Shown here: piece by piece, positions 3,485 through 16,563 of the stretch | How positions within the stretch are numbered: position 1 is the stretch's first letter | Layout of the letters: the number at the start of each line of letters is the position of its first letter | Source: Actinomycetota bacterium | GTDB lineage: Bacteria > Margulisbacteria > Marinamargulisbacteria > GCA-2716485 > GCA-002719695 | DNA length: 24,338 bases | Direction of reading: 5' to 3' | NCBI GenBank assembly: GCA_002697535.1 | Contig: NZWE01000033.1 | Location: 16,983-41,320, forward strand | Notes under the pieces: model-generated | What the model was told of the DNA's origin: nothing | What the model saw: the letters and a program-made list of their open reading frames with translations, nothing else | Database searches by the model: none | Position numbers and translations under genes: made by a program

Positions 3485-3527
3485 AGGGAATTTGATAGTA
3501 ACTCTTTAAAGTGTTGTAAAAGACTCT

Positions 3528-3533
3528 TATAAT
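3528..3533 (+). promoter_or_regulatory. Candidate -10 box for the motor-like cassette
   Basis: Perfect TATAAT 20 nt upstream of ATG 3554; weak -35 TTTAAA at 3505-3510 with 17-nt spacing. Confidence 0.45.
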
Positions 3534-3553: not shown

Positions 3554-4741
3554 ATGAATAAGATGAAAGTAAATGTTTTAGTTATTATTTTTTTGTTGGG
3601 CTTTTCAACAAGTTTATGGGCTGTTGCTGCAGAACCTGATGGAAGTCGTTCAGAATATGATGAAGCTGTTGAATTAGAGTCTCAAGATACTCAAAAAAAG
3701 GATGTTGTTGATACGCCAGAGACTAGTTTAGAACAACCTGTCGAATCGCTTGATACGTTTGATACGGATAATTCAAGCAAAACAGTTGTTAAAGATAATC
3801 GTTCTGATGATGCTACTGTTGATATGATGATGGCAGATGTTGAAGAAGTAAGTGTGGAACTTGATGATGATATTATAGAAGTTTTAGAAGAATATGAGGG
3901 TTTAATTAAACGAAAACAATTTACCAAAGCTAATGAAGTTCTAACTAGTATTCCGATTGGTGCTTTAAATAAAAATCAACGGCGGCAAAAGAAAATGCTT
4001 AATGTTTTTGAGAAAATTGCTGCTGATCAAGCTGAGAATGAGCGACAATTTGGTAAAGATGAATCGTTGGATCAATCTGTTATGAAAACAATAAAACGGT
4101 TACAACGTCAGGCAAAAGTTTATATTTTAGAAGGAAGAACGGTTTTACCGCGTGACTTGTTAATTCAATCTCTTTATTTAGATCGTAAAAATTATTTGTC
4201 GAAACAATTGTTAGATCGATGTTTACAGTTACCTTTAGGATCTTATCAAGTTGAAAATATTGAAAAGAAATATTGGAATAATTCTTTAATAGAATTAAGA
4301 AGTGGGTTTCCTTCAAAATCAGTTGATTCGTTACAAATGTTGGCTAATTTTGATCCTGAAAATCCAATGATTTTTGAACGTATGGGTTCAGCTTTTTATA
4401 TGTCTGGTCAGGTTAAAAAGGCTGTCGAGGCTTGGAAACGTGCTTTATATTTAAGTCCAGAACGAAATGATTTAAAAGAGTTTATTGTTAATGCTGAAAA
4501 AGAAGTGGAGCGACAAGAAAAACTATCAAAAGCTTATTTTGACAGTAAAAAGAAGAAAAGTGATACAGGATCAGTTCAATCTGATGTGCCTATGCAGGTG
4601 TTACGGGTTGTTAATGATTCCAATACAGCCTTTAGTTATGCTCAAGAAGTTCGTCAACAGTTGGGTAAAGGTGTTAATGTGGTTGTAGAAGAACTTGATA
4701 ATGGTAAATGGGCTGTTAAAGTTCCAATCAAAAAAAAATAA
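3554..4741 (+). CDS. Secreted/periplasmic TPR-like protein, first gene of FliFG-MotAB-like cassette; possible SPOR-like C-terminus
   Basis: Signal peptide (MKVNVLVIIFLLGFSTSLWAVA), acidic low-complexity N-terminal region, TPR-like repeat (AFYMSGQVKKAVEAWKRALYLSPER), C-terminal YAQEVRQQLGKGVNVVVEELDNGKWAVKVP. Confidence 0.7.
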   Translation: MNKMKVNVLVIIFLLGFSTSLWAVAAEPDGSRSEYDEAVELESQDTQKKDVVDTPETSLEQPVESLDTFDTDNSSKTVVKDNRSDDATVDMMMADVEEVSVELDDDIIEVLEEYEGLIKRKQFTKANEVLTSIPIGALNKNQRRQKKMLNVFEKIAADQAENERQFGKDESLDQSVMKTIKRLQRQAKVYILEGRTVLPRDLLIQSLYLDRKNYLSKQLLDRCLQLPLGSYQVENIEKKYWNNSLIELRSGFPSKSVDSLQMLANFDPENPMIFERMGSAFYMSGQVKKAVEAWKRALYLSPERNDLKEFIVNAEKEVERQEKLSKAYFDSKKKKSDTGSVQSDVPMQVLRVVNDSNTAFSYAQEVRQQLGKGVNVVVEELDNGKWAVKVPIKKK

Positions 4742-4750
4742 GGGGTTAGT

Positions 4751-6190
4751 ATGAAAAAAATAATTATTTTTATTCTTTGTTTATTATGTTTTTCACAGTG
4801 TTTATTTGCTGCATCAGATCGATATTTAATAGAAGATAATTTAACTGGGATTGCTCAGCAAACATTAGATGCTATGTTTGGAAAAAATAATTTTATTGTT
4901 CGTGTTCAAGTTCAGATGACAGATTCAAAATATAATGTTCGGTATACTAAAGAATCAAATCCGCAACAATCAAAATCAAAATCTAATAAAGAGGGGGAGC
5001 AAGTTTATATTTTACCTGGGGTTCCAGCTTTAAAAAATATTGCACCTGATTCTTTAAAACAGCTTCCTTATGATTCGGTTACAACGTTAACGGAACCTAA
5101 AATTAAACGTATTCTTGTTAAGGTTTTAGTGAATAAGTCTTACCCACGTAGTCAGGCAAAAAAAGCAGAAAAGGCTTTAAAAGATGTTTTAGCGATGAAA
5201 AGTGGTCGGGATAAAATTAAGATGGAATATACAAAATTTTATGAGGATCCTAACGAAAAATCTCAAAATATTACTATTTTACCAGGTCCAGAAAAAATTA
5301 TGTCATTAGGTAATTTGTTTAATGTTCTTATTATTTTATTATTTATTATTTTTATTTTTATTTATAGTCGCTATCAAAAGTTATTATTAGCAAAAGAAGA
5401 TTCATCAGATTCAGGGGGTCCTTCCATTAGTGTTAATCCTAACTTAGAACTTCCAGAAGGCTTAGGTGGAGGAAGTAATGGATCGGATATGAGTATTAAT
5501 ATGAATGCTGATGTTAAACGATATTTTGATTTTGTGACTCAAAATAATATTTCTGATTTTATTTTTCTTATTAAAAGTCAGAACTTAAAACCTGATTATA
5601 TTAGTTTAATTATATCGTTTTTAGCGCCTAATTTATCAGCTAAAATTTTAAATAGTTTGGAACCTAAGGTACAAGCTCAGGTTACAGTTTTATTAACTGA
5701 GCAACGGTTAGGAAAAAAAGATTTGTTGGATAAATTAGAGAAGAAGTTAAAATCTGATGTTGAATGTTTTGTTGGTGGAGATGATAAAGTAGCTGATCTT
5801 TCTGAATCATTATCTAATAAGCAACGAAAAGAAATTACACAATTTTCTAAAAAAATTAATCCAAAAGGGTATAAAAAGTTACGTCCGCATATGGTTTTGT
5901 TTGACGATATTCTTCTTTTAGATGATTCAGAGTTACAATTTGTTTTATCGGATTTAAACTTAGAACAACTTGCTACAGCTTTAGTTGGTGCTGATCAAGG
6001 GTTGTTTTCAAAAATTAATGATAATTTAACAAAAGGTGCCCGAGATATGGTTGGACAGTATTTAGAGCTAAAAAGTGAGTCTTCTAATGAATCTCATATT
6101 GAAAGTGCTCAAGATGCTATAATAAAAGTGTTAAGGAAGTTAGATGCTCAAGGAAAAATTAAATTGGCTGATAAATTAAAGACAGCATAA
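4751..6190 (+). CDS. Chimeric rotor-like protein: signal peptide + FliF C-terminal-like periplasmic part + one TM + FliG middle/C-terminal-like cytoplasmic part
   Basis: Signal peptide; QQTLDAMFGKNNFIVRVQVQM and PKIKRILVKVLVNKSYPRSQAKKAEKALKDVLAMKSGRDKIKMEYTKF resemble the FliF periplasmic C-terminal region; TM LFNVLIILLFIIFIFIYS; PDYISLIISFLAPNLSAKILNSLEPKVQAQVTVLL (FliG-M-like), FVGGDDKVAD (GG linker), MVLFDDILLLDDSELQFVLSDLNLEQLATALVGA...ESAQDAIIKVLRKLDAQGKIKL (FliG-C-like). Confidence 0.85.
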   Translation: MKKIIIFILCLLCFSQCLFAASDRYLIEDNLTGIAQQTLDAMFGKNNFIVRVQVQMTDSKYNVRYTKESNPQQSKSKSNKEGEQVYILPGVPALKNIAPDSLKQLPYDSVTTLTEPKIKRILVKVLVNKSYPRSQAKKAEKALKDVLAMKSGRDKIKMEYTKFYEDPNEKSQNITILPGPEKIMSLGNLFNVLIILLFIIFIFIYSRYQKLLLAKEDSSDSGGPSISVNPNLELPEGLGGGSNGSDMSINMNADVKRYFDFVTQNNISDFIFLIKSQNLKPDYISLIISFLAPNLSAKILNSLEPKVQAQVTVLLTEQRLGKKDLLDKLEKKLKSDVECFVGGDDKVADLSESLSNKQRKEITQFSKKINPKGYKKLRPHMVLFDDILLLDDSELQFVLSDLNLEQLATALVGADQGLFSKINDNLTKGARDMVGQYLELKSESSNESHIESAQDAIIKVLRKLDAQGKIKLADKLKTA

Positions 6191-6199
6191 GGAGATAAT

Positions 6200-6979
6200 A
6201 TGAATTTAAATATTTTTGTAGGTCTTTTTATTGCTTCTTTAGCGATTTATTTAGGAGCTCCTGATGTTCGTAATGATATTACGGTTTATTTGCAGTTTAA
6301 TGCTTTTTTATTGGTTTTTCTGGGTACGTTTGGATCGACGTTAATTAGTACGTCTTTTGCTGATTTTCGTGGGTTATATGTTTTGTTTATTAGTTTGTTT
6401 TTTAGAAAGAAACGATTTTTGTCGCCAGTTGATGCTATTAAAATTATGGTGGATTTATCAGATCAAATTCAACATATTTCTCGACAATCTTTACCTGATA
6501 AAGTCGTTCATTTAAAGGATGCTTATTTGTCTAAAAGTATGGATATGGTTGCAGCAGGTTTGGATAAAGAGTTTGTTTTAGATGCGTTATATACGGATAT
6601 TGATGAACTTAGAAATAGACATTCTAAAAAGATTTCAGCTGTTCGTACTATGGGGTCTTTTGCTCCTATGTTTGGTATGGCTGGTACGGTTATTGGGGTT
6701 ATTCAGGTTTTAAAAAATGTTACTGATATTGAAAATATTGTTGCAGGGATGGCCTTAGCTTTGTTAACTACTTTATATGGTTTAATTTTTACATCTATTT
6801 TATTTCTTCCTTTAGCGAATAAGTTACAAGCTTTAAGTGAAGAAGAAGTGTTATCAAAACAAATTATTAGTCAAGGTACGGAAATGGTGTTAGATAAGGA
6901 AATACCGCTTAAAGTTGAAAAGTATTTAACTGCTTATTTGGAATCGAGTCAGCAAGATAATCTGTTTAAAAAGAAATAG
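6200..6979 (+). CDS. MotA/PomA-like stator protein
   Basis: FAPMFGMAGTVIGVIQVLKNVTDIENIVAGMALALLTTLYGLIFTSILFLPLANKL is a textbook MotA/PomA TM3-TM4 block; SD AAGGAG upstream. Confidence 0.94.
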   Translation: MNLNIFVGLFIASLAIYLGAPDVRNDITVYLQFNAFLLVFLGTFGSTLISTSFADFRGLYVLFISLFFRKKRFLSPVDAIKIMVDLSDQIQHISRQSLPDKVVHLKDAYLSKSMDMVAAGLDKEFVLDALYTDIDELRNRHSKKISAVRTMGSFAPMFGMAGTVIGVIQVLKNVTDIENIVAGMALALLTTLYGLIFTSILFLPLANKLQALSEEEVLSKQIISQGTEMVLDKEIPLKVEKYLTAYLESSQQDNLFKKK

Positions 6980-6988
6980 GGGACCACA

Positions 6989-7684
6989 TTGCCAAAACGT
7001 AAGTTACAAGTTAACAAGCAATCTGGGGGTGATGGAGGTGCTAGTGAGGTTCAAACAATTTATGCTGATTTAGTTACTTTTGTTATGATGTTATTTATTT
7101 TGTTATTTGTTTTGTCTTATAATGACGAGAAATCACAGGACTTTATTACAGAACTACAAATTAAATTTGGTGAAGAAGTAGAAGATAAACAACAAACATT
7201 AACTACGGATGCGTTGTTGGTTAGTAAAATTAATCATTATATTAAAAAAGAAGATTTATCTGAGTATGCTCATGTTGTTGTTGATGAGTATCGGGTTAAA
7301 ATGATTTTAAATCCACCTATTTTGTTTGATAGTGGTAAGGTTGCGATTAAACAAGCTGGTAAAAAAGTTTTAGCGGGGGTTGGTGATATTTTTGATAATG
7401 TTGTTAATCCTTTGGAAATTGAGGGACATACGGATAATGTTCCTATTAATACAGAAGAGTATGCTTCCAATTGGGAATTATCATTTTTTAGAGCTTTTTC
7501 GGTTGTTAAATATTATATTTTTTCACGTGGCTATGATCCTGTTAGAATGACGGCGAAAGGATTTGGTGAATATCGTCCTATTGTTGATAATAGTACAGTT
7601 TTGAATCGTGCTCAAAATCGGCGTATTGAAATTAATGTTATTCGTATTACGGAAACAGATGATTTTGATGATGCGTCTTATTAG
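6989..7684 (+). CDS. MotB-like stator protein with OmpA-type peptidoglycan-binding domain (TTG start)
   Basis: IYADLVTFVMMLFILLFVLS (TM with ion-binding Asp), LFDSGKVAIKQAGKKVLAGVG, LEIEGHTDNVPI, RAFSVVKYYIFSRGYDPVRMTAKGFGEYRPIVDN, NRAQNRRIEINV. Confidence 0.94.
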   Translation: MPKRKLQVNKQSGGDGGASEVQTIYADLVTFVMMLFILLFVLSYNDEKSQDFITELQIKFGEEVEDKQQTLTTDALLVSKINHYIKKEDLSEYAHVVVDEYRVKMILNPPILFDSGKVAIKQAGKKVLAGVGDIFDNVVNPLEIEGHTDNVPINTEEYASNWELSFFRAFSVVKYYIFSRGYDPVRMTAKGFGEYRPIVDNSTVLNRAQNRRIEINVIRITETDDFDDASY

Positions 7685-9231: not shown

Positions 9232-10017
9232 ATGATGTTTACACTGTTTTTTTTCTTCTTAAACATAAATTTTGTGTTTTGGGTTGTATTGTTTTTTGCT
9301 ATATTTTGCTTGATTTGGTATATTAACAATAGTTCTATGGTTTATTCTTTGCTTTATATTGTTGCTTTTTTTACTTTATTTAATGCTTTTGGTTTAGCTA
9401 GTTTCGCTGAAGAAGGTGTGGTTGTATCTGATTCTGTTGTCACCTCTTCTGTTGTTGAGTTAGATATGTCTCATATGGATTTCTTCTCTAAAGACTTAAA
9501 GTCTTTAGAAACTACTTTAGAAGTCAAAAATTATGTGGATAGTCTTGATATTCTTGAAAAAGTTAGAGATAGAATCCAATTTCAGCAAAACCGTGTTATG
9601 TCTTCTTTTTTCCCTTTATCTTTAGAGGGATGGTCTTTAAAAAAGAAGGAAAGTATTATTGATAATGAGCTGGCTAATACAGATTATGGTGTTATTTTTA
9701 CACAAAGTTATTTTAATAAGCAGGGACATACTATCGAAATTAATGTTGTTAATGCTGAAGAATTAATTCGAGATTATAACGATTTATTTAATAACCCTGG
9801 GTTGGTTAGGGGGATGGGGAATACTCATATTATTGATCAAAAGGGATATAAGACAATTGAAACGGTTTTTGATGATGTTAAACACTATGAACAAAATATT
9901 GTTTTATCTAATACTGTTATTATGACTTTAATTGCTATTGGTATTGATGATGTTAGTATTTTGAATAATTTTATTGAATTTGTTGATATTGAAGCGTTAG
10001 ATTTATATTTAAATTAA
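9232..10017 (+). CDS. Hypothetical membrane protein with N-terminal TM segments and soluble C-terminal region
   Basis: Long ORF divergent to rho with hydrophobic N-terminus (FTLFFFFLNINFVFWVVLFFAIFCLIWYI; MVYSLLYIVAFFTLFNAFGLASFA). Confidence 0.7.
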   Translation: MMFTLFFFFLNINFVFWVVLFFAIFCLIWYINNSSMVYSLLYIVAFFTLFNAFGLASFAEEGVVVSDSVVTSSVVELDMSHMDFFSKDLKSLETTLEVKNYVDSLDILEKVRDRIQFQQNRVMSSFFPLSLEGWSLKKKESIIDNELANTDYGVIFTQSYFNKQGHTIEINVVNAEELIRDYNDLFNNPGLVRGMGNTHIIDQKGYKTIETVFDDVKHYEQNIVLSNTVIMTLIAIGIDDVSILNNFIEFVDIEALDLYLN

Positions 10018-16508: not shown

Positions 16509-16563
16509 GTTTATTTTTATTGAGATTATGTACAACTCCTTGCTTATCGTATAGAATTTGTGT

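What the first reader, a model, noticed from the sequence alone, without database searches (positions are those of the whole stretch)
4751..6190. Natural fusion of a reduced FliF-like periplasmic part to FliG-like domains through a single TM
Canonical FliF has two TMs and several ring-building motifs upstream of the C-terminal part, and FliG is a separate soluble protein. Here a signal peptide leads directly into a region resembling only the late FliF periplasmic domain (PKIKRILVKVLVNKSY...), then one TM (about 5312-5367), then FliG-M-like and FliG-C-like segments (FliG-C-like from about 5891). This removes the normal FliF-FliG interface and most MS-ring architecture, so the ring would need to assemble differently.
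Basis: partly seen in the sequence, partly recalled or inferred. Interest (0 to 1): 0.88.

Follow-up and report, generated by a model that had tools for sequence, protein, structure and literature searches.

The report
Natural FliF–FliG rotor fusion protein
A marine Margulisbacteria gene makes one membrane protein that joins the ring-forming outer domain of the flagellar base protein FliF to the torque-receiving part of FliG; it sits beside stator genes (MotA/MotB) and looks like a stripped-down rotary-motor rotor that I could not find described in the papers I searched.

Summary
ORF 4751-6190 is one 479-aa gene. It has a signal-peptide-like N-terminus, a periplasmic domain whose best fold matches are all FliF RBM3/S-ring, one TM helix, a Gly-rich linker, then FliG middle and C-terminal domains (profile E 6e-37 to Thermotoga FliG). 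FliF RBM1/RBM2, the FliF C-tail and FliG-N are absent.

The architecture is conserved at full length in more than 50 Marinamargulisbacteria proteins (35-100% identity). A secreted TPR protein is always encoded directly upstream. MotA-MotB lies directly downstream in 15 of 24 species genomes.

Distant relatives with the same RBM3-TM-FliG build occur in other Margulisbacteria and in Elusimicrobiota. There they sit beside a TPR/beta-barrel protein, giant proteins and often FlbD-MotA-MotB.

Published gene tables show that Marinamargulisbacteria also carry a separate canonical FliF and a filament-less flagellar gene set, so this protein does not replace FliF. It appears to be their only FliG-like protein.

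Most likely it forms its own RBM3 ring carrying a FliG ring that MotAB turns. Whether that ring works alone or within the reduced flagellar basal body is unresolved. The closest natural precedent, the Chlamydiaceae FliF-FliG fusion, has a different domain set.

The parts
3505..3533 (+). Promoter-like site (TTTAAA-17-TATAAT) 20 nt upstream of the TPR gene; possible start of a four-gene operon
   Evidence: Best consensus match in the region, 10 of 12. This is a consensus match only, and the region holds fewer such sites than shuffled sequence.
3554..4741 (+). Secreted TPR protein (395 aa): signal peptide, acidic low-complexity region, helical/TPR core, small C-terminal domain with weak SPOR-like signal. 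It is the invariant upstream partner of the fusion gene.
   Evidence: TPR hits in Pfam and in the PDB profile search. Present directly upstream of the fusion gene in all 24 genome loci. Homologous to the upstream TPR/UPF0164 proteins of the Elusimicrobiota relatives (hhalign prob 96-97%). SPOR hit in only 2 of 18 members.
4751..6190 (+). The fusion gene (479 aa): signal peptide, FliF-RBM3-like domain, TM helix, linker, FliG-M, FliG-C
   Evidence: Full-length conservation in 51 homologues.
4751..4810 (+). N-terminal hydrophobic segment, residues 1-20 (MKK + 16 hydrophobic residues + LFA|AS). Likely a cleaved Sec signal peptide; an uncleaved anchor is not excluded.
   Evidence: Hydropathy scan. 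The 'FA' then A/V-S-D pattern is conserved in the alignment. AlphaFold models it as one helix continuous with helix 1.
4817..5242 (+). Periplasmic FliF RBM3 (S-ring)-like domain, residues 23-164, with secondary structure alpha-beta-beta-[insert]-beta-beta-alpha-beta
   Evidence: Foldseek top 18 hits are all FliF RBM3. PF08345 hits 19 of 26 members. hhalign to E. coli FliF E 7e-5. The model has 73 residues at pLDDT of at least 90.
4949..5086 (+). Shortened beta-collar-like insert, residues about 67-112, holding the most conserved motif of the family, (V)YILPGVPALKNIAPDxLNQLPYDSVTT. Compare E. coli FliF ...GYPGGVPGALSNQPAP....
   Evidence: Invariant P89, G90, P92, P106, S109 and T111, yet pLDDT below 50 in the monomer models. 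E. coli FliF sequence.
5306..5368 (+). Single transmembrane helix, residues 186-206, followed by basic residues (YSRYQK), so the C-terminal half is cytoplasmic
   Evidence: Hydropathy scan. AlphaFold helix 186-217.
5414..5473 (+). Conserved motif GGPxIxVNPNxELPEGxGGG inside the otherwise low-complexity cytoplasmic linker (residues 219-254); role unknown
   Evidence: Near-invariant P230, E233 and P235. pLDDT below 50.
5519..5785 (+). FliG middle (ARM-M) domain through the invariant Gly-Gly (G342-G343). The EHPQR FliM-binding motif is not conserved.
   Evidence: PF14841 at 280-337. 1lkv alignment. Column counts against E. coli FliG.
5855..6166 (+). FliG C-terminal domain, residues 369-472. It includes the MFxF-equivalent MVLFDD (5891-5908) and the torque-helix equivalent NLTKGARDMVGQYLELK (6023-6073).
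   Evidence: PF01706 E 2.5e-19. The torque-helix charges K264, R281, D288, D289 and R297 are replaced by V/I, S/G/N, Q, Y/F and S/T/N.
6200..6979 (+). MotA-type stator A subunit (259 aa), 9 nt after the fusion gene
   Evidence: PF01618 E 1e-26. Best NCBIfam models are flagellar MotA/MotP/PomA, E 4e-44 to 5e-39, all below the equivalog cutoffs. P173 and P222 equivalents conserved; the R90 equivalent is Q in 15 of 16.
6989..7684 (+). MotB-type stator B subunit (231 aa, TTG start) with plug and OmpA-like peptidoglycan-binding domain
   Evidence: PF13677 plug and PF00691 OmpA. The Asp32 equivalent is conserved wherever it aligns.

Best explanation
The protein is the rotor subunit of a compact ion-driven rotor-stator module encoded by four adjacent genes: TPR protein, fusion, MotA, MotB.

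Shown:
- After export of its N-terminal half, a FliF-RBM3-type domain lies in the periplasm.
- One TM helix crosses the membrane.
- FliG-M and FliG-C lie in the cytoplasm.
- The two interfaces that normally plug FliG into a flagellum are missing: FliG-N for the FliF tail, and EHPQR for FliM.

Inferred:
- The RBM3 domains polymerise side by side into an S-ring-like annulus of a few tens of subunits. The short, highly conserved collar insert would fold only in the oligomer.
- Each subunit would then contribute one FliG-MC unit, giving a 1:1 FliG ring under the membrane.
- MotA/MotB units encoded next door would anchor to peptidoglycan and push on the FliG-C ring through a co-evolved, non-canonical interface.
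- The rotating periplasmic face would act on, or be held by, the co-conserved secreted TPR protein.

I judge it somewhat more likely that this ring is a self-standing machine, a paralogue of the flagellar rotor, than that it docks onto the canonical FliF ring. Its output is unknown.
For: Domain anatomy.

RBM3 is the ring-forming S-ring module. The PDB hits include a '33-mer RBM3' ring of the Salmonella MS-ring (8ftf) and the SpoIIIAG ring.

The collar-like insert holds the family's invariant residues but is disordered in the monomer models. That fits a segment which orders on assembly.

Laboratory FliF-FliG fusions in Salmonella are motile. This includes a deletion fusion that lacks most of FliG-N (PMC7355467). 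Vibrio FliF-FliG fusion proteins form rings (abstracts).

Gene neighbourhood:
- The TPR gene is directly upstream in 24 of 24 genomes.
- MotA-MotB is directly downstream, on the same strand with 9-nt gaps, in 15 of 24.
- In the Elusimicrobiota sister family the TPR partner is upstream in 33 of 36 long loci. FlbD-MotA-MotB lies within 10 kb in at least 10 of 36.

Stator function looks intact. The MotB Asp32 and MotA P173/P222 equivalents, the plug and the OmpA domain are all present.

Both sides of the canonical charge pairs changed together. FliG D288/D289 became Q-Y/F in 27 of 28 sequences. MotA R90 became Q in 15 of 16.

Evidence for independence from the flagellum:
- The Riflemargulisbacteria homologue P0161 lies next to a CheY-like receiver, a second soluble FliG-like protein and a 3722-aa protein.
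- That lineage is tabulated with a complete flagellar set, including normal FliG and FliM.
- No flagellar gene lies within 10 kb in any Marinamargulisbacteria locus.
- Elusimicrobiota relatives sit among giant proteins, UPF0164/FadL-like barrel-TPR proteins and CHU_C and PorP/SprF-like proteins.
Against: No oligomer was modelled or observed, so ring formation and rotation are inferred from homology only.

All five canonical torque-helix charges and the MotA R90/E98 equivalents are absent. The MotA loop alignment is uncertain there. The rotor-stator contact is therefore unproven.

Eight of 24 Marinamargulisbacteria genomes have the TPR-fusion pair without adjacent MotAB.

In Marinamargulisbacteria this seems to be the only FliG-like gene and the only flagellar-type MotAB, while FliF, FliM/N, the export gate, rod, P/L rings and hook are present. 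That fits a flagellar role at least as naturally.

In the R. eludens transcriptome the 'FliG' next to MotA is expressed (mean about 506). MotA (0), MotB (36) and the upstream gene (41) are barely expressed.
Confidence: 0.45

Rival explanations
1. It is the lineage's flagellar FliG. Marinamargulisbacteria would have replaced the non-covalent FliF-tail/FliG-N joint with a FliG that carries its own FliF-derived RBM3-TM anchor. This anchor would co-assemble with, or encircle, the canonical FliF ring. The adjacent MotAB would be the flagellar stator and the TPR protein a periplasmic stator or rotor scaffold.
For: Only one FliG is annotated in the high-quality 'Ca. Ruthmannia eludens' genome, and it lies directly before MotA and MotB. 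FliF, FliM, FliN, FliI, FlhA/B, FliP, FlgE/F/G/H/I are annotated elsewhere in that genome.

In the single-cell genomes FliG is flagged 'check_length', while FliF, the export gate, rod, P/L rings and hook are found.

The stator is of the flagellar type, with plug, OmpA domain and best models MotA/PomA.

Fused FliF-FliG rotors work in Salmonella.

Periplasmic TPR proteins are known stator scaffolds in some flagellar motors, such as PflB in Campylobacter (my own knowledge, not tested here).
Against: - The RBM3 domain is very far from canonical FliF (15-18% identity; Pfam E about 1e-4 to 1e-7; no PDB sequence hit). That makes a mixed ring with FliF unlikely.
- EHPQR is not conserved.
- Family members coexist with a normal FliG in Riflemargulisbacteria.
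- The operon is never next to flagellar genes.
- These genomes lack annotated flagellin, FlgK/L and FliD. A swimming flagellum is therefore doubtful.
- I could not verify by sequence that R. eludens peg.420 is the fusion.
Confidence: 0.33
2. It is a non-rotating membrane scaffold. The RBM3/FliG protein would form a static platform that recruits, parks or regulates MotAB units, or uses their ion flow for envelope signalling or energy transduction to the TPR protein. That would be more like Tol/Ton systems than like a motor.
For: The canonical torque-generating charges are lost on both the FliG and MotA sides. The partner is a TPR protein with a possible peptidoglycan-binding end. No obvious output structure is encoded nearby.
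Against: The replacement residues (Q-Y/F) are themselves near-invariant. The Gly-Gly and MFxF-type hinges used in FliG mechanics are kept. MotA-type units are thought to rotate in all characterised relatives (general knowledge; reviewed in PMC12505986).
Confidence: 0.1
3. It is a decaying relic of a flagellar operon or an annotation/assembly artefact, either two genes read as one or a chimeric contig.
For: The group has a reduced flagellar gene set. Some related assemblies show frameshifts in the neighbouring stator genes.
Against: - The frame is continuous in 51 proteins and 24 independent genomes down to about 30% identity, with near-constant length.
- Linker motifs are conserved.
- No conserved internal Met precedes the FliG part.
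- Synteny is stable.
- The putative R. eludens orthologue (peg.420, orthology inferred from gene order) is transcribed.
Confidence: 0.03

Closest known systems
Salmonella/Vibrio FliF-FliG fusion rotors (spontaneous and engineered; full-length and deletion fusions)
   Same: FliF is covalently joined to FliG at 1:1. [quoted passage not shown] Vibrio FliFG fusions give S-ring structures, 8z4d/8z4g, which are among the fold and sequence hits.
   Different: Those keep both TM helices and RBM1, RBM2 and RBM3 of FliF, and they work inside a complete flagellum with FliM/FliN. The natural protein keeps only RBM3 with a short collar, has a signal peptide in place of TM1, lacks EHPQR and the canonical torque charges, and has a dedicated TPR partner.
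Chlamydiaceae natural FliF-FliG fusion (Bergeron 2016, PeerJ, PMC4768692)
   Same: It is a natural, shortened FliF fused at its cytoplasmic end to a FliG-like domain, in bacteria without a full flagellum.
   Different: As described in that paper, the chlamydial protein is about 330 aa. It has two TM helices, RBM2 plus an RBM-like domain and no SpoIIIAG-like RBM3, and only FliG-M. The present family has the complementary set (RBM3 only; FliG-M plus FliG-C) and sits beside MotAB.
Canonical FliF (MS ring) plus FliG (C-ring top) of bacterial flagella
   Same: The domain families are the same: PF08345, PF14841 and PF01706. The Gly-Gly and MFxF-type hinges are kept, and the stator is of flagellar type.
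   Different: This is one polypeptide with no RBM1/2, no FliF C-tail and no FliG-N. It shares only 23-26% identity with the nearest canonical FliGs found. Normal operons read fliE-fliF-fliG-fliH-fliI, whereas this gene lies between a TPR gene and motAB in a housekeeping neighbourhood.
SpoIIIAG sporulation ring
   Same: It is an RBM-type domain with a beta insert that forms a large homo-oligomeric ring. It is the next-best fold match after FliF (5wc3, E 4e-4).
   Different: SpoIIIAG has an N-terminal anchor, no cytoplasmic FliG part and no link to MotAB.
Bacteroidota gliding/T9SS motor (GldLM moving the giant adhesin SprB, with PorP/SprF-type partners)
   Same: This resemblance concerns the Elusimicrobiota relatives only, and only as a working analogy. 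There, a MotAB-type ion motor is encoded with giant proteins and with CHU_C and PorP/SprF-like proteins.
   Different: No GldL/GldM homologues are involved. The rotor here is FliF/FliG-derived. No such neighbours occur in this window. The analogy rests on my own knowledge and was not tested.

Membership tests
FliF (flagellar M-ring protein) | RBM1-RBM2 region (Pfam PF01514 YscJ_FliF) after an N-terminal TM helix | tested here: not met
   There is no PF01514 hit at E up to 1. The RBM3-like domain starts at about residue 23, directly after the signal-peptide-like segment. True FliFs in the same searches show PF01514 plus PF08345 (P0120).
FliF (flagellar M-ring protein) | RBM3/S-ring domain with beta-collar (Pfam PF08345) | tested here: met
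   Foldseek top 18 hits are all FliF RBM3. PF08345 hits 19 of 26 members; the window protein itself is just below cutoff. hhalign E 7e-5. The collar insert is about 40 residues, against roughly 100 in E. coli FliF.
FliF (flagellar M-ring protein) | C-terminal cytoplasmic tail that binds FliG-N | tested here: not met
   After the TM helix come a Gly-rich linker and then FliG-M directly.
FliG (rotor/switch protein, TIGR00207) | N-terminal domain (PF14842) that binds FliF | tested here: not met
   There is no PF14842 hit. The TIGR00207 match covers only model positions 106-327 of 338 and scores 78 bits against a cutoff of 226.7.
FliG (rotor/switch protein, TIGR00207) | Middle and C-terminal ARM domains with Gly-Gly linker and MFxF hinge | tested here: met
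   PF14841 and PF01706 score above cutoff. 1lkv E 6e-37. G194-G195 equivalents are invariant, and the hinge reads (V/L)LFDD.
FliG (rotor/switch protein, TIGR00207) | EHPQR motif that binds FliM | tested here: not met
   Column counts: E125 gives E18/Q9; H126 gives K/N/T/S; P127 gives P13/V5/L4; Q128 gives E/D; R160 is variable.
FliG (rotor/switch protein, TIGR00207) | Conserved charged residues of the torque helix (E. coli K264, R281, D288, D289, R297) that pair with MotA R90/E98 | tested here: not met
   They are replaced by V/I, S/G/N, Q (27 of 28), Y/F (27 of 28) and S/T/N. Other charges lie nearby on the helix (K, R/K-D, E, K). The MotA R90 equivalent is Q in 15 of 16 and E98 is variable, although the loop alignment is uncertain.
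Flagellar-type MotA/MotB stator (neighbouring genes) | MotA with conserved channel prolines; MotB with the essential Asp, a plug and an OmpA-like peptidoglycan-binding domain | tested here: met
   The best NCBIfam models are flagellar MotA/MotP/PomA and MotS/MotB, but all fall below the equivalog cutoffs. It is not Zorya: ZorA scores only E 0.009 and there are no ZorC/D.
Chlamydiaceae FliF-FliG fusion | Two TM helices, RBM2 plus an RBM-like domain, FliG-M only, about 330 aa (as described in PMC4768692) | tested here: not met
   The comparison was by architecture only, against the paper's description. The domain subset is different. No sequence-level comparison was made.
Ring-forming RBM proteins in general | Assembly into a closed homo-oligomeric ring | not testable with these tools
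   Only monomer prediction was available. Multimer modelling or electron microscopy is needed.

The most novel reading that the evidence does not exclude
The RBM3-TM-FliG protein, its TPR partner and MotAB form a flagellum-independent rotary machine, a second descendant of the flagellar rotor shared by Margulisiibacteriota and Elusimicrobiota. Its rotating periplasmic ring would drive something other than a flagellar rod. In Elusimicrobiota the partner is a TPR protein fused to an outer-membrane-barrel-like domain, and the cluster carries giant proteins of up to about 19,000 aa together with CHU_C and PorP/SprF-like proteins. That would amount to a new envelope-spanning apparatus for moving or presenting giant surface proteins, that is, a new kind of surface motility or adhesion motor.
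Probability: 0.3. Interest if true: 0.93.

Novelty: new variant of a known kind. Interest (0 to 1): 0.8.

Why it matters
The flagellar rotor is normally built from two proteins, FliF and FliG, joined by a dedicated interface and embedded in a machine of about 30 proteins. This family is a natural minimal version. It keeps only the S-ring-forming domain, one TM helix and the two FliG domains that stack into a ring and meet the stator, and its own stator genes and one periplasmic partner are encoded beside it.

If it rotates, it would give a much simpler system for several questions:
- what a MotAB-driven rotor minimally needs;
- how ring size and FliG stoichiometry are set;
- how a rotor-stator interface can be rebuilt without the classic charge pairs.

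If it acts independently of the flagellum, it would be a new member of the small set of ion-driven rotary machines (flagellum, Exb/Tol, GldLM, Zorya), and the first to use a FliG ring outside the flagellum. It also bears on how flagellar parts are reused in lineages close to Cyanobacteria that keep only filament-less flagellar gene sets.

Tried and rejected
1. A sequence-profile search of the N-terminal domain against PDB sequences found no FliF. The relationship appears only by fold, by Pfam across members and by hhalign.
3. Two genes or a frameshift: rejected. The frame is continuous in all homologues and the Met codons just before the FliG part are not conserved.
4. Zorya or another defence system: rejected. 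PADLOC gives only generic MotB similarity, ZorA scores E 0.009, and there are no partner genes.
5. 'Marinamargulisbacteria have no flagellar genes, so this must be non-flagellar': rejected after reading the published gene tables.
6. Searching for a canonical FliG of the same lineage with the FliG-MC part returned only five canonical FliGs, at 23-26% identity. I looked up two of them, and both sit in complete flagellar operons with flagellin genes, so they are probably from other organisms. The search was uninformative on presence or absence.
7. SPOR domain at the C-terminus of the TPR protein: only 2 of 18 members hit weakly, so it is kept as a hint only.
8. Literature searches for a prior description of this architecture found none. 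Terms covered FliG-like/MotA/non-flagellar, FliF-FliG fusion, RBM3/stator/fusion, Elusimicrobia/FliG and rotary/non-flagellar. The searched library is incomplete.
9. The promoter and terminator scan gives only one decent promoter-like site before the TPR gene and no convincing terminator after motB.
Full report
**What is in the sequence.** Window 4751-6190 (+) is one ATG-initiated ORF of 479 codons. An AAGGGG ribosome-binding motif precedes it, and the stop of the upstream gene lies 9 nt before its start. The next two genes follow at 9-nt gaps on the same strand: 6200-6979 and 6989-7684. The best promoter-like site of the region lies just before the upstream gene, at 3505-3533. The four genes therefore look like one operon, which is an inference. 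The rest of the 24-kb window is housekeeping: hemC, hemA and hemL upstream, then rho, EF-Tu, nadA, sodB and others, with no other flagellar gene.

**Anatomy of the protein.** A hydropathy scan finds exactly two hydrophobic stretches, residues 1-20 and 186-206. The first ends in LFA|AS and looks like a Sec signal peptide. The second is followed by basic residues, which places the C-terminal half in the cytoplasm.

Pfam reports FliG_M (280-337, above cutoff), FliG_C (369-472, E 2.5e-19) and a sub-threshold YscJ_FliF_C match at 39-93. NCBIfam's FliG equivalog model matches only its positions 106-327 of 338, at 78 bits against a cutoff of 226.7. FliG-N is therefore missing. A profile of 28 family members hits Thermotoga FliG middle-plus-C structures at E 6e-37 (1lkv) and hits no FliF.

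**The periplasmic domain.** I modelled residues 21-186 with a 26-sequence alignment. The result was mean pLDDT 73.6, with 73 residues at 90 or above. The fold is alpha-beta-beta, a roughly 40-residue low-confidence insert, then beta-beta-alpha-beta.

- Foldseek against the PDB returned 18 FliF S-ring/RBM3 chains as the top 18 hits. The best was 6scn at E 1.5e-6 and probability 1.0. The set includes a 33-mer ring made of RBM3 alone (8ftf). SpoIIIAG (E 4e-4) and PrgK followed.
- Independently, Pfam YscJ_FliF_C hits 19 of 26 family members scanned one by one, with best E 1.5e-7.
- hhalign of the family profile against E. coli FliF 225-468 gives E 7e-5.

Read by eye against E. coli FliF, the segments line up in order:
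- helix 1 and strand 1 (YLIEDNLTGIAQQTLDAMFGKNNFIVRVQV against YASDVEGRIQRRIEAILSPIVGNGNIHAQVTA);
- the collar-tip motif (LPGVPALKNIAP against GGVPGALSNQPAP);
- the last helix and strand, then the TM helix.

A profile search of the domain against PDB sequences alone found nothing, so the relationship is remote.

**Is it one protein?** Fifty-one homologues were found, nearly all 467-500 aa, at 35-100% identity and 95-100% coverage. tblastn matches cover residues 1 to about 476 in 24 species-representative genomes. The linker contains a conserved motif, GGPxIxVNPNxELPEG, and the Met codons just before the FliG part are not conserved. A two-gene or artefact reading is not tenable.

**Who has it and what travels with it.** Named hits are Candidatus Marinamargulisbacteria single-cell genomes and marine or freshwater MAGs.

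In all 24 genome loci the gene order hemL, TPR protein, fusion is kept. MotA-MotB follows directly in 15. Eight have downstream sequence but no adjacent stator genes, and one is cut by a contig end.

The TPR protein (395 aa here) has a signal peptide, an acidic region, a TPR core and a small C-terminal domain with only a weak SPOR signal.

The stator genes are of flagellar type. MotB has the plug and the OmpA-like domain, and its Asp32 equivalent is kept. MotA keeps the P173 and P222 equivalents. The best NCBIfam models are MotA/MotP/PomA, all below equivalog cutoffs.

**A wider family.** An exhaustive profile search with the periplasmic domain alone found 119 proteins at E up to 1e-3, most 460-680 aa with the domain at the N-terminus. 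Of 47 distant ones, 39 carry FliG_C, 36 carry FliG_M and 30 carry YscJ_FliF_C. Only two are ordinary FliFs. Named members come from other Margulisiibacteriota and from Elusimicrobiota.

- **Elusimicrobiota branch.** This branch adds a C-terminal TPR region. In 80 metagenome loci it is preceded almost always by a protein that combines a UPF0164/FadL-like outer-membrane-barrel signature with TPR repeats (33 of 36 loci of at least 12 kb). It is often followed by large proteins of unknown function. FlbD-MotA-MotB lies within 10 kb in at least 10 of 36. Giant ORFs (14,454 and 18,879 aa in two genomes), CHU_C and PorP/SprF-like proteins lie nearby in several.
- **The TPR partner is shared.** The TPR part of that upstream protein is homologous to the Marinamargulisbacteria TPR protein (hhalign probability 96-97%).
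- **Riflemargulisbacteria member.** P0161 (549 aa) lies next to a CheY-like receiver, a soluble 225-aa FliG-like protein and a 3722-aa repeat protein.

Carnevali et al. 2019 (PMC6349859, Supplementary Data 2) tabulate flagellar genes per genome. AA1A is named in the text as the Marinamargulisbacteria representative. For AA1A the table lists FlhA, FlhB, FliO/P/Q/R, FliN, FliF ('reliable'), FlgC/F/G/H/I/A and FlgE. It lists no FliM, FliE, FlgB, FliK, FlgD, FlgK/L, FliD or FlgM. FliG is marked 'check_length', which is what a 480-aa FliG-like protein would trigger (my inference). Columns AG2A and AG3B, which I take to be the AG-series single-cell genomes, look similar.

The RAST-annotated 'Ca. Ruthmannia eludens' genome (Marinamargulisbacteria; PMC6784892, supplementary file 3) lists a single FliG, peg.420. 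It lies between a hypothetical protein (peg.419) and MotA/MotB (pegs 421, 422). FliF, FliM/N, FliI, FliP, FlhA/B and FlgE/F/G/H/I are listed elsewhere, and no flagellin or hook-associated proteins are listed. Orthology of peg.420 to this gene is inferred from gene order, not checked by sequence.

The cell therefore keeps a normal FliF. What is unusual is that its only FliG-like protein carries its own FliF-derived ring module. The Riflemargulisbacteria genomes in the same table have complete flagellar sets with normal FliG and FliM. There the fusion is a paralogue. Identifying P0161's genome with those table columns is an inference from names.

**Residue-level tests against E. coli FliG.**
- The Gly-Gly pair is invariant and the MFxF hinge is kept as (V/L)LFDD.
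- The FliM-binding EHPQR motif is not conserved.
- All five torque-helix charges are replaced: K264 by V/I, R281 by S/G/N, D288 by Q in 27 of 28, D289 by Y/F in 27 of 28, and R297 by S/T/N.
- Other charged positions flank them (NLTK-x-A-[KR]-D-MV-x-QYLELK).

In the cognate MotA the R90 equivalent is Q in 15 of 16 sequences and E98 is variable. That loop is hard to align between MotA types. The Elusimicrobiota branch keeps K/R at 264 and E-E at 288-289. I read this as a co-evolved, non-canonical rotor-stator surface in the Margulisbacteria branch. It could also mean that the contact is lost.

**How it most likely works.**

Shown: the topology, the domain identities, the missing FliG-N, FliF-tail and EHPQR interfaces, the conserved TPR and MotAB neighbourhood, and intact stator catalytic residues.

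Inferred:
- The RBM3 domains polymerise into an S-ring-like annulus, as FliF RBM3 and SpoIIIAG do.
- The collar insert is invariant yet disordered in the monomer, and would fold on assembly.
- Each subunit delivers one FliG-MC unit below the membrane, which would give a 1:1 FliG ring like that of laboratory FliF-FliG fusions. Those fusions are motile in Salmonella even when most of FliG-N is deleted.
- MotAB units turn this ring.

Two readings remain for what the ring is attached to.
- **Autonomous machine (about 0.45).** Comparative evidence favours this: paralogy with normal FliG in Riflemargulisbacteria, a TPR partner and non-flagellar neighbours in Elusimicrobiota, no linkage to flagellar genes, loss of both docking interfaces, and an RBM3 too divergent for a mixed ring with FliF.
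- **Motor part of the reduced basal body (about 0.33).** The gene inventory of Marinamargulisbacteria favours this: no other FliG or flagellar stator is annotated, while FliF, FliM/N, rod, bushings and hook are present.

A static scaffold (about 0.1) and a relic or artefact (about 0.03) are less likely.

**Comparison with what is known.** The nearest natural precedent is the Chlamydiaceae FliF-FliG fusion (PMC4768692). It has two TM helices, RBM2 plus an RBM-like domain, and only FliG-M, so it is a different and almost complementary subset. It is not described there as linked to MotAB. Engineered or spontaneous Salmonella and Vibrio fusions keep the whole FliF.

The protein fails membership tests for FliF (no RBM1/2, no tail) and for FliG (no N domain, no EHPQR, no canonical charges, far below the equivalog cutoff). 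It clearly descends from both. I found no paper describing this architecture or its operon. The searched library is incomplete, so prior description cannot be excluded.

**Verdict.** I rate it a new variant of a known kind (flagellar rotor-stator parts in a new, minimal and conserved arrangement), interest 0.8. There is a real chance, about 0.3, that it marks a flagellum-independent rotary machine.

Noticed in passing
L001 11447-12649 and L002 11447-12874 (Marinamargulisbacteria contigs carrying P0043, from two samples): MotA and MotB are read as one continuous frame (475 aa in L002). The junction DNA is identical in both assemblies (...LESSEKQDGKKNNPPPVDDGDDGSAEIGTVYGDM...). L001 has an extra frameshift inside MotB. 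This is either a natural MotA-MotB fusion, which would clash with the 5:2 stoichiometry, or a shared long-read assembly error.
   Followed up: partly
L030, L031, L032 and L036-L115 (Elusimicrobiota-type loci): A sister family has the build RBM3-TM-FliG_M-FliG_C plus a C-terminal TPR region. It is almost always preceded by a UPF0164/FadL-like barrel-TPR protein. Giant ORFs (up to 18,879 aa), CHU_C and PorP/SprF-like proteins and FlbD-MotA-MotB cassettes are frequent nearby. The arrangement recalls an adhesin-moving surface machine.
   Followed up: partly
L033/L034 9216-21650 (Candidatus Margulisbacteria GWD2_39_127-type genome): The Riflemargulisbacteria homologue (549 aa) is flanked by a stand-alone CheY-like receiver, a soluble 225-aa FliG-M/C-like protein, a 197-aa protein of unknown function and a 3722-aa Kelch/beta-propeller protein. 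No MotAB lies nearby.
   Followed up: partly
L016, L018-L022, L026, L027: Eight Marinamargulisbacteria genomes, several of them from freshwater or groundwater samples to judge by their isolate names, keep the TPR-fusion gene pair but have no MotA/MotB next to it. Rho or opposite-strand genes follow directly.
   Followed up: partly
L012, L013, L023 (GenBank titles 'Rickettsiales bacterium'): Three MAGs labelled Rickettsiales carry the Marinamargulisbacteria-type operon with the same hemL-TPR-fusion-motAB synteny. Their taxonomic labels are probably wrong.
   Followed up: no
window 4640-4738 (C-terminal ~35 residues of the TPR protein): The conserved C-terminal module (…QVLRVVNDSNTAFSYAQEVRQQL…VVVEELDNGKWAVKVP) resembles half of a SPOR-type peptidoglycan-binding fold. 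Only 2 of 18 homologues reach a weak Pfam SPOR hit.
   Followed up: partly
window 9232-10017 (+), 16558-18411 (+), 20315-21040 (-): Three sizeable ORFs (261, 617 and 241 aa) have no Pfam match at E up to 1e-3. ORF 21413-23416 (667 aa) has only a C-terminal TPR.
   Followed up: no
Published gene tables (PMC6349859 Supplementary Data 2; PMC6784892 supplementary file 3): Marinamargulisbacteria, like Saganbacteria in the same table, appear to keep export gate, FliF, rod, P/L rings and hook. They lack annotated flagellin, hook-filament junction and cap proteins. This filament-less flagellar gene set has an unclear function.
   Followed up: partly
window 6989: motB starts with TTG, 9 nt after the motA stop. 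Spacing through the four-gene cluster is uniformly 9 nt between the last three genes.
   Followed up: no
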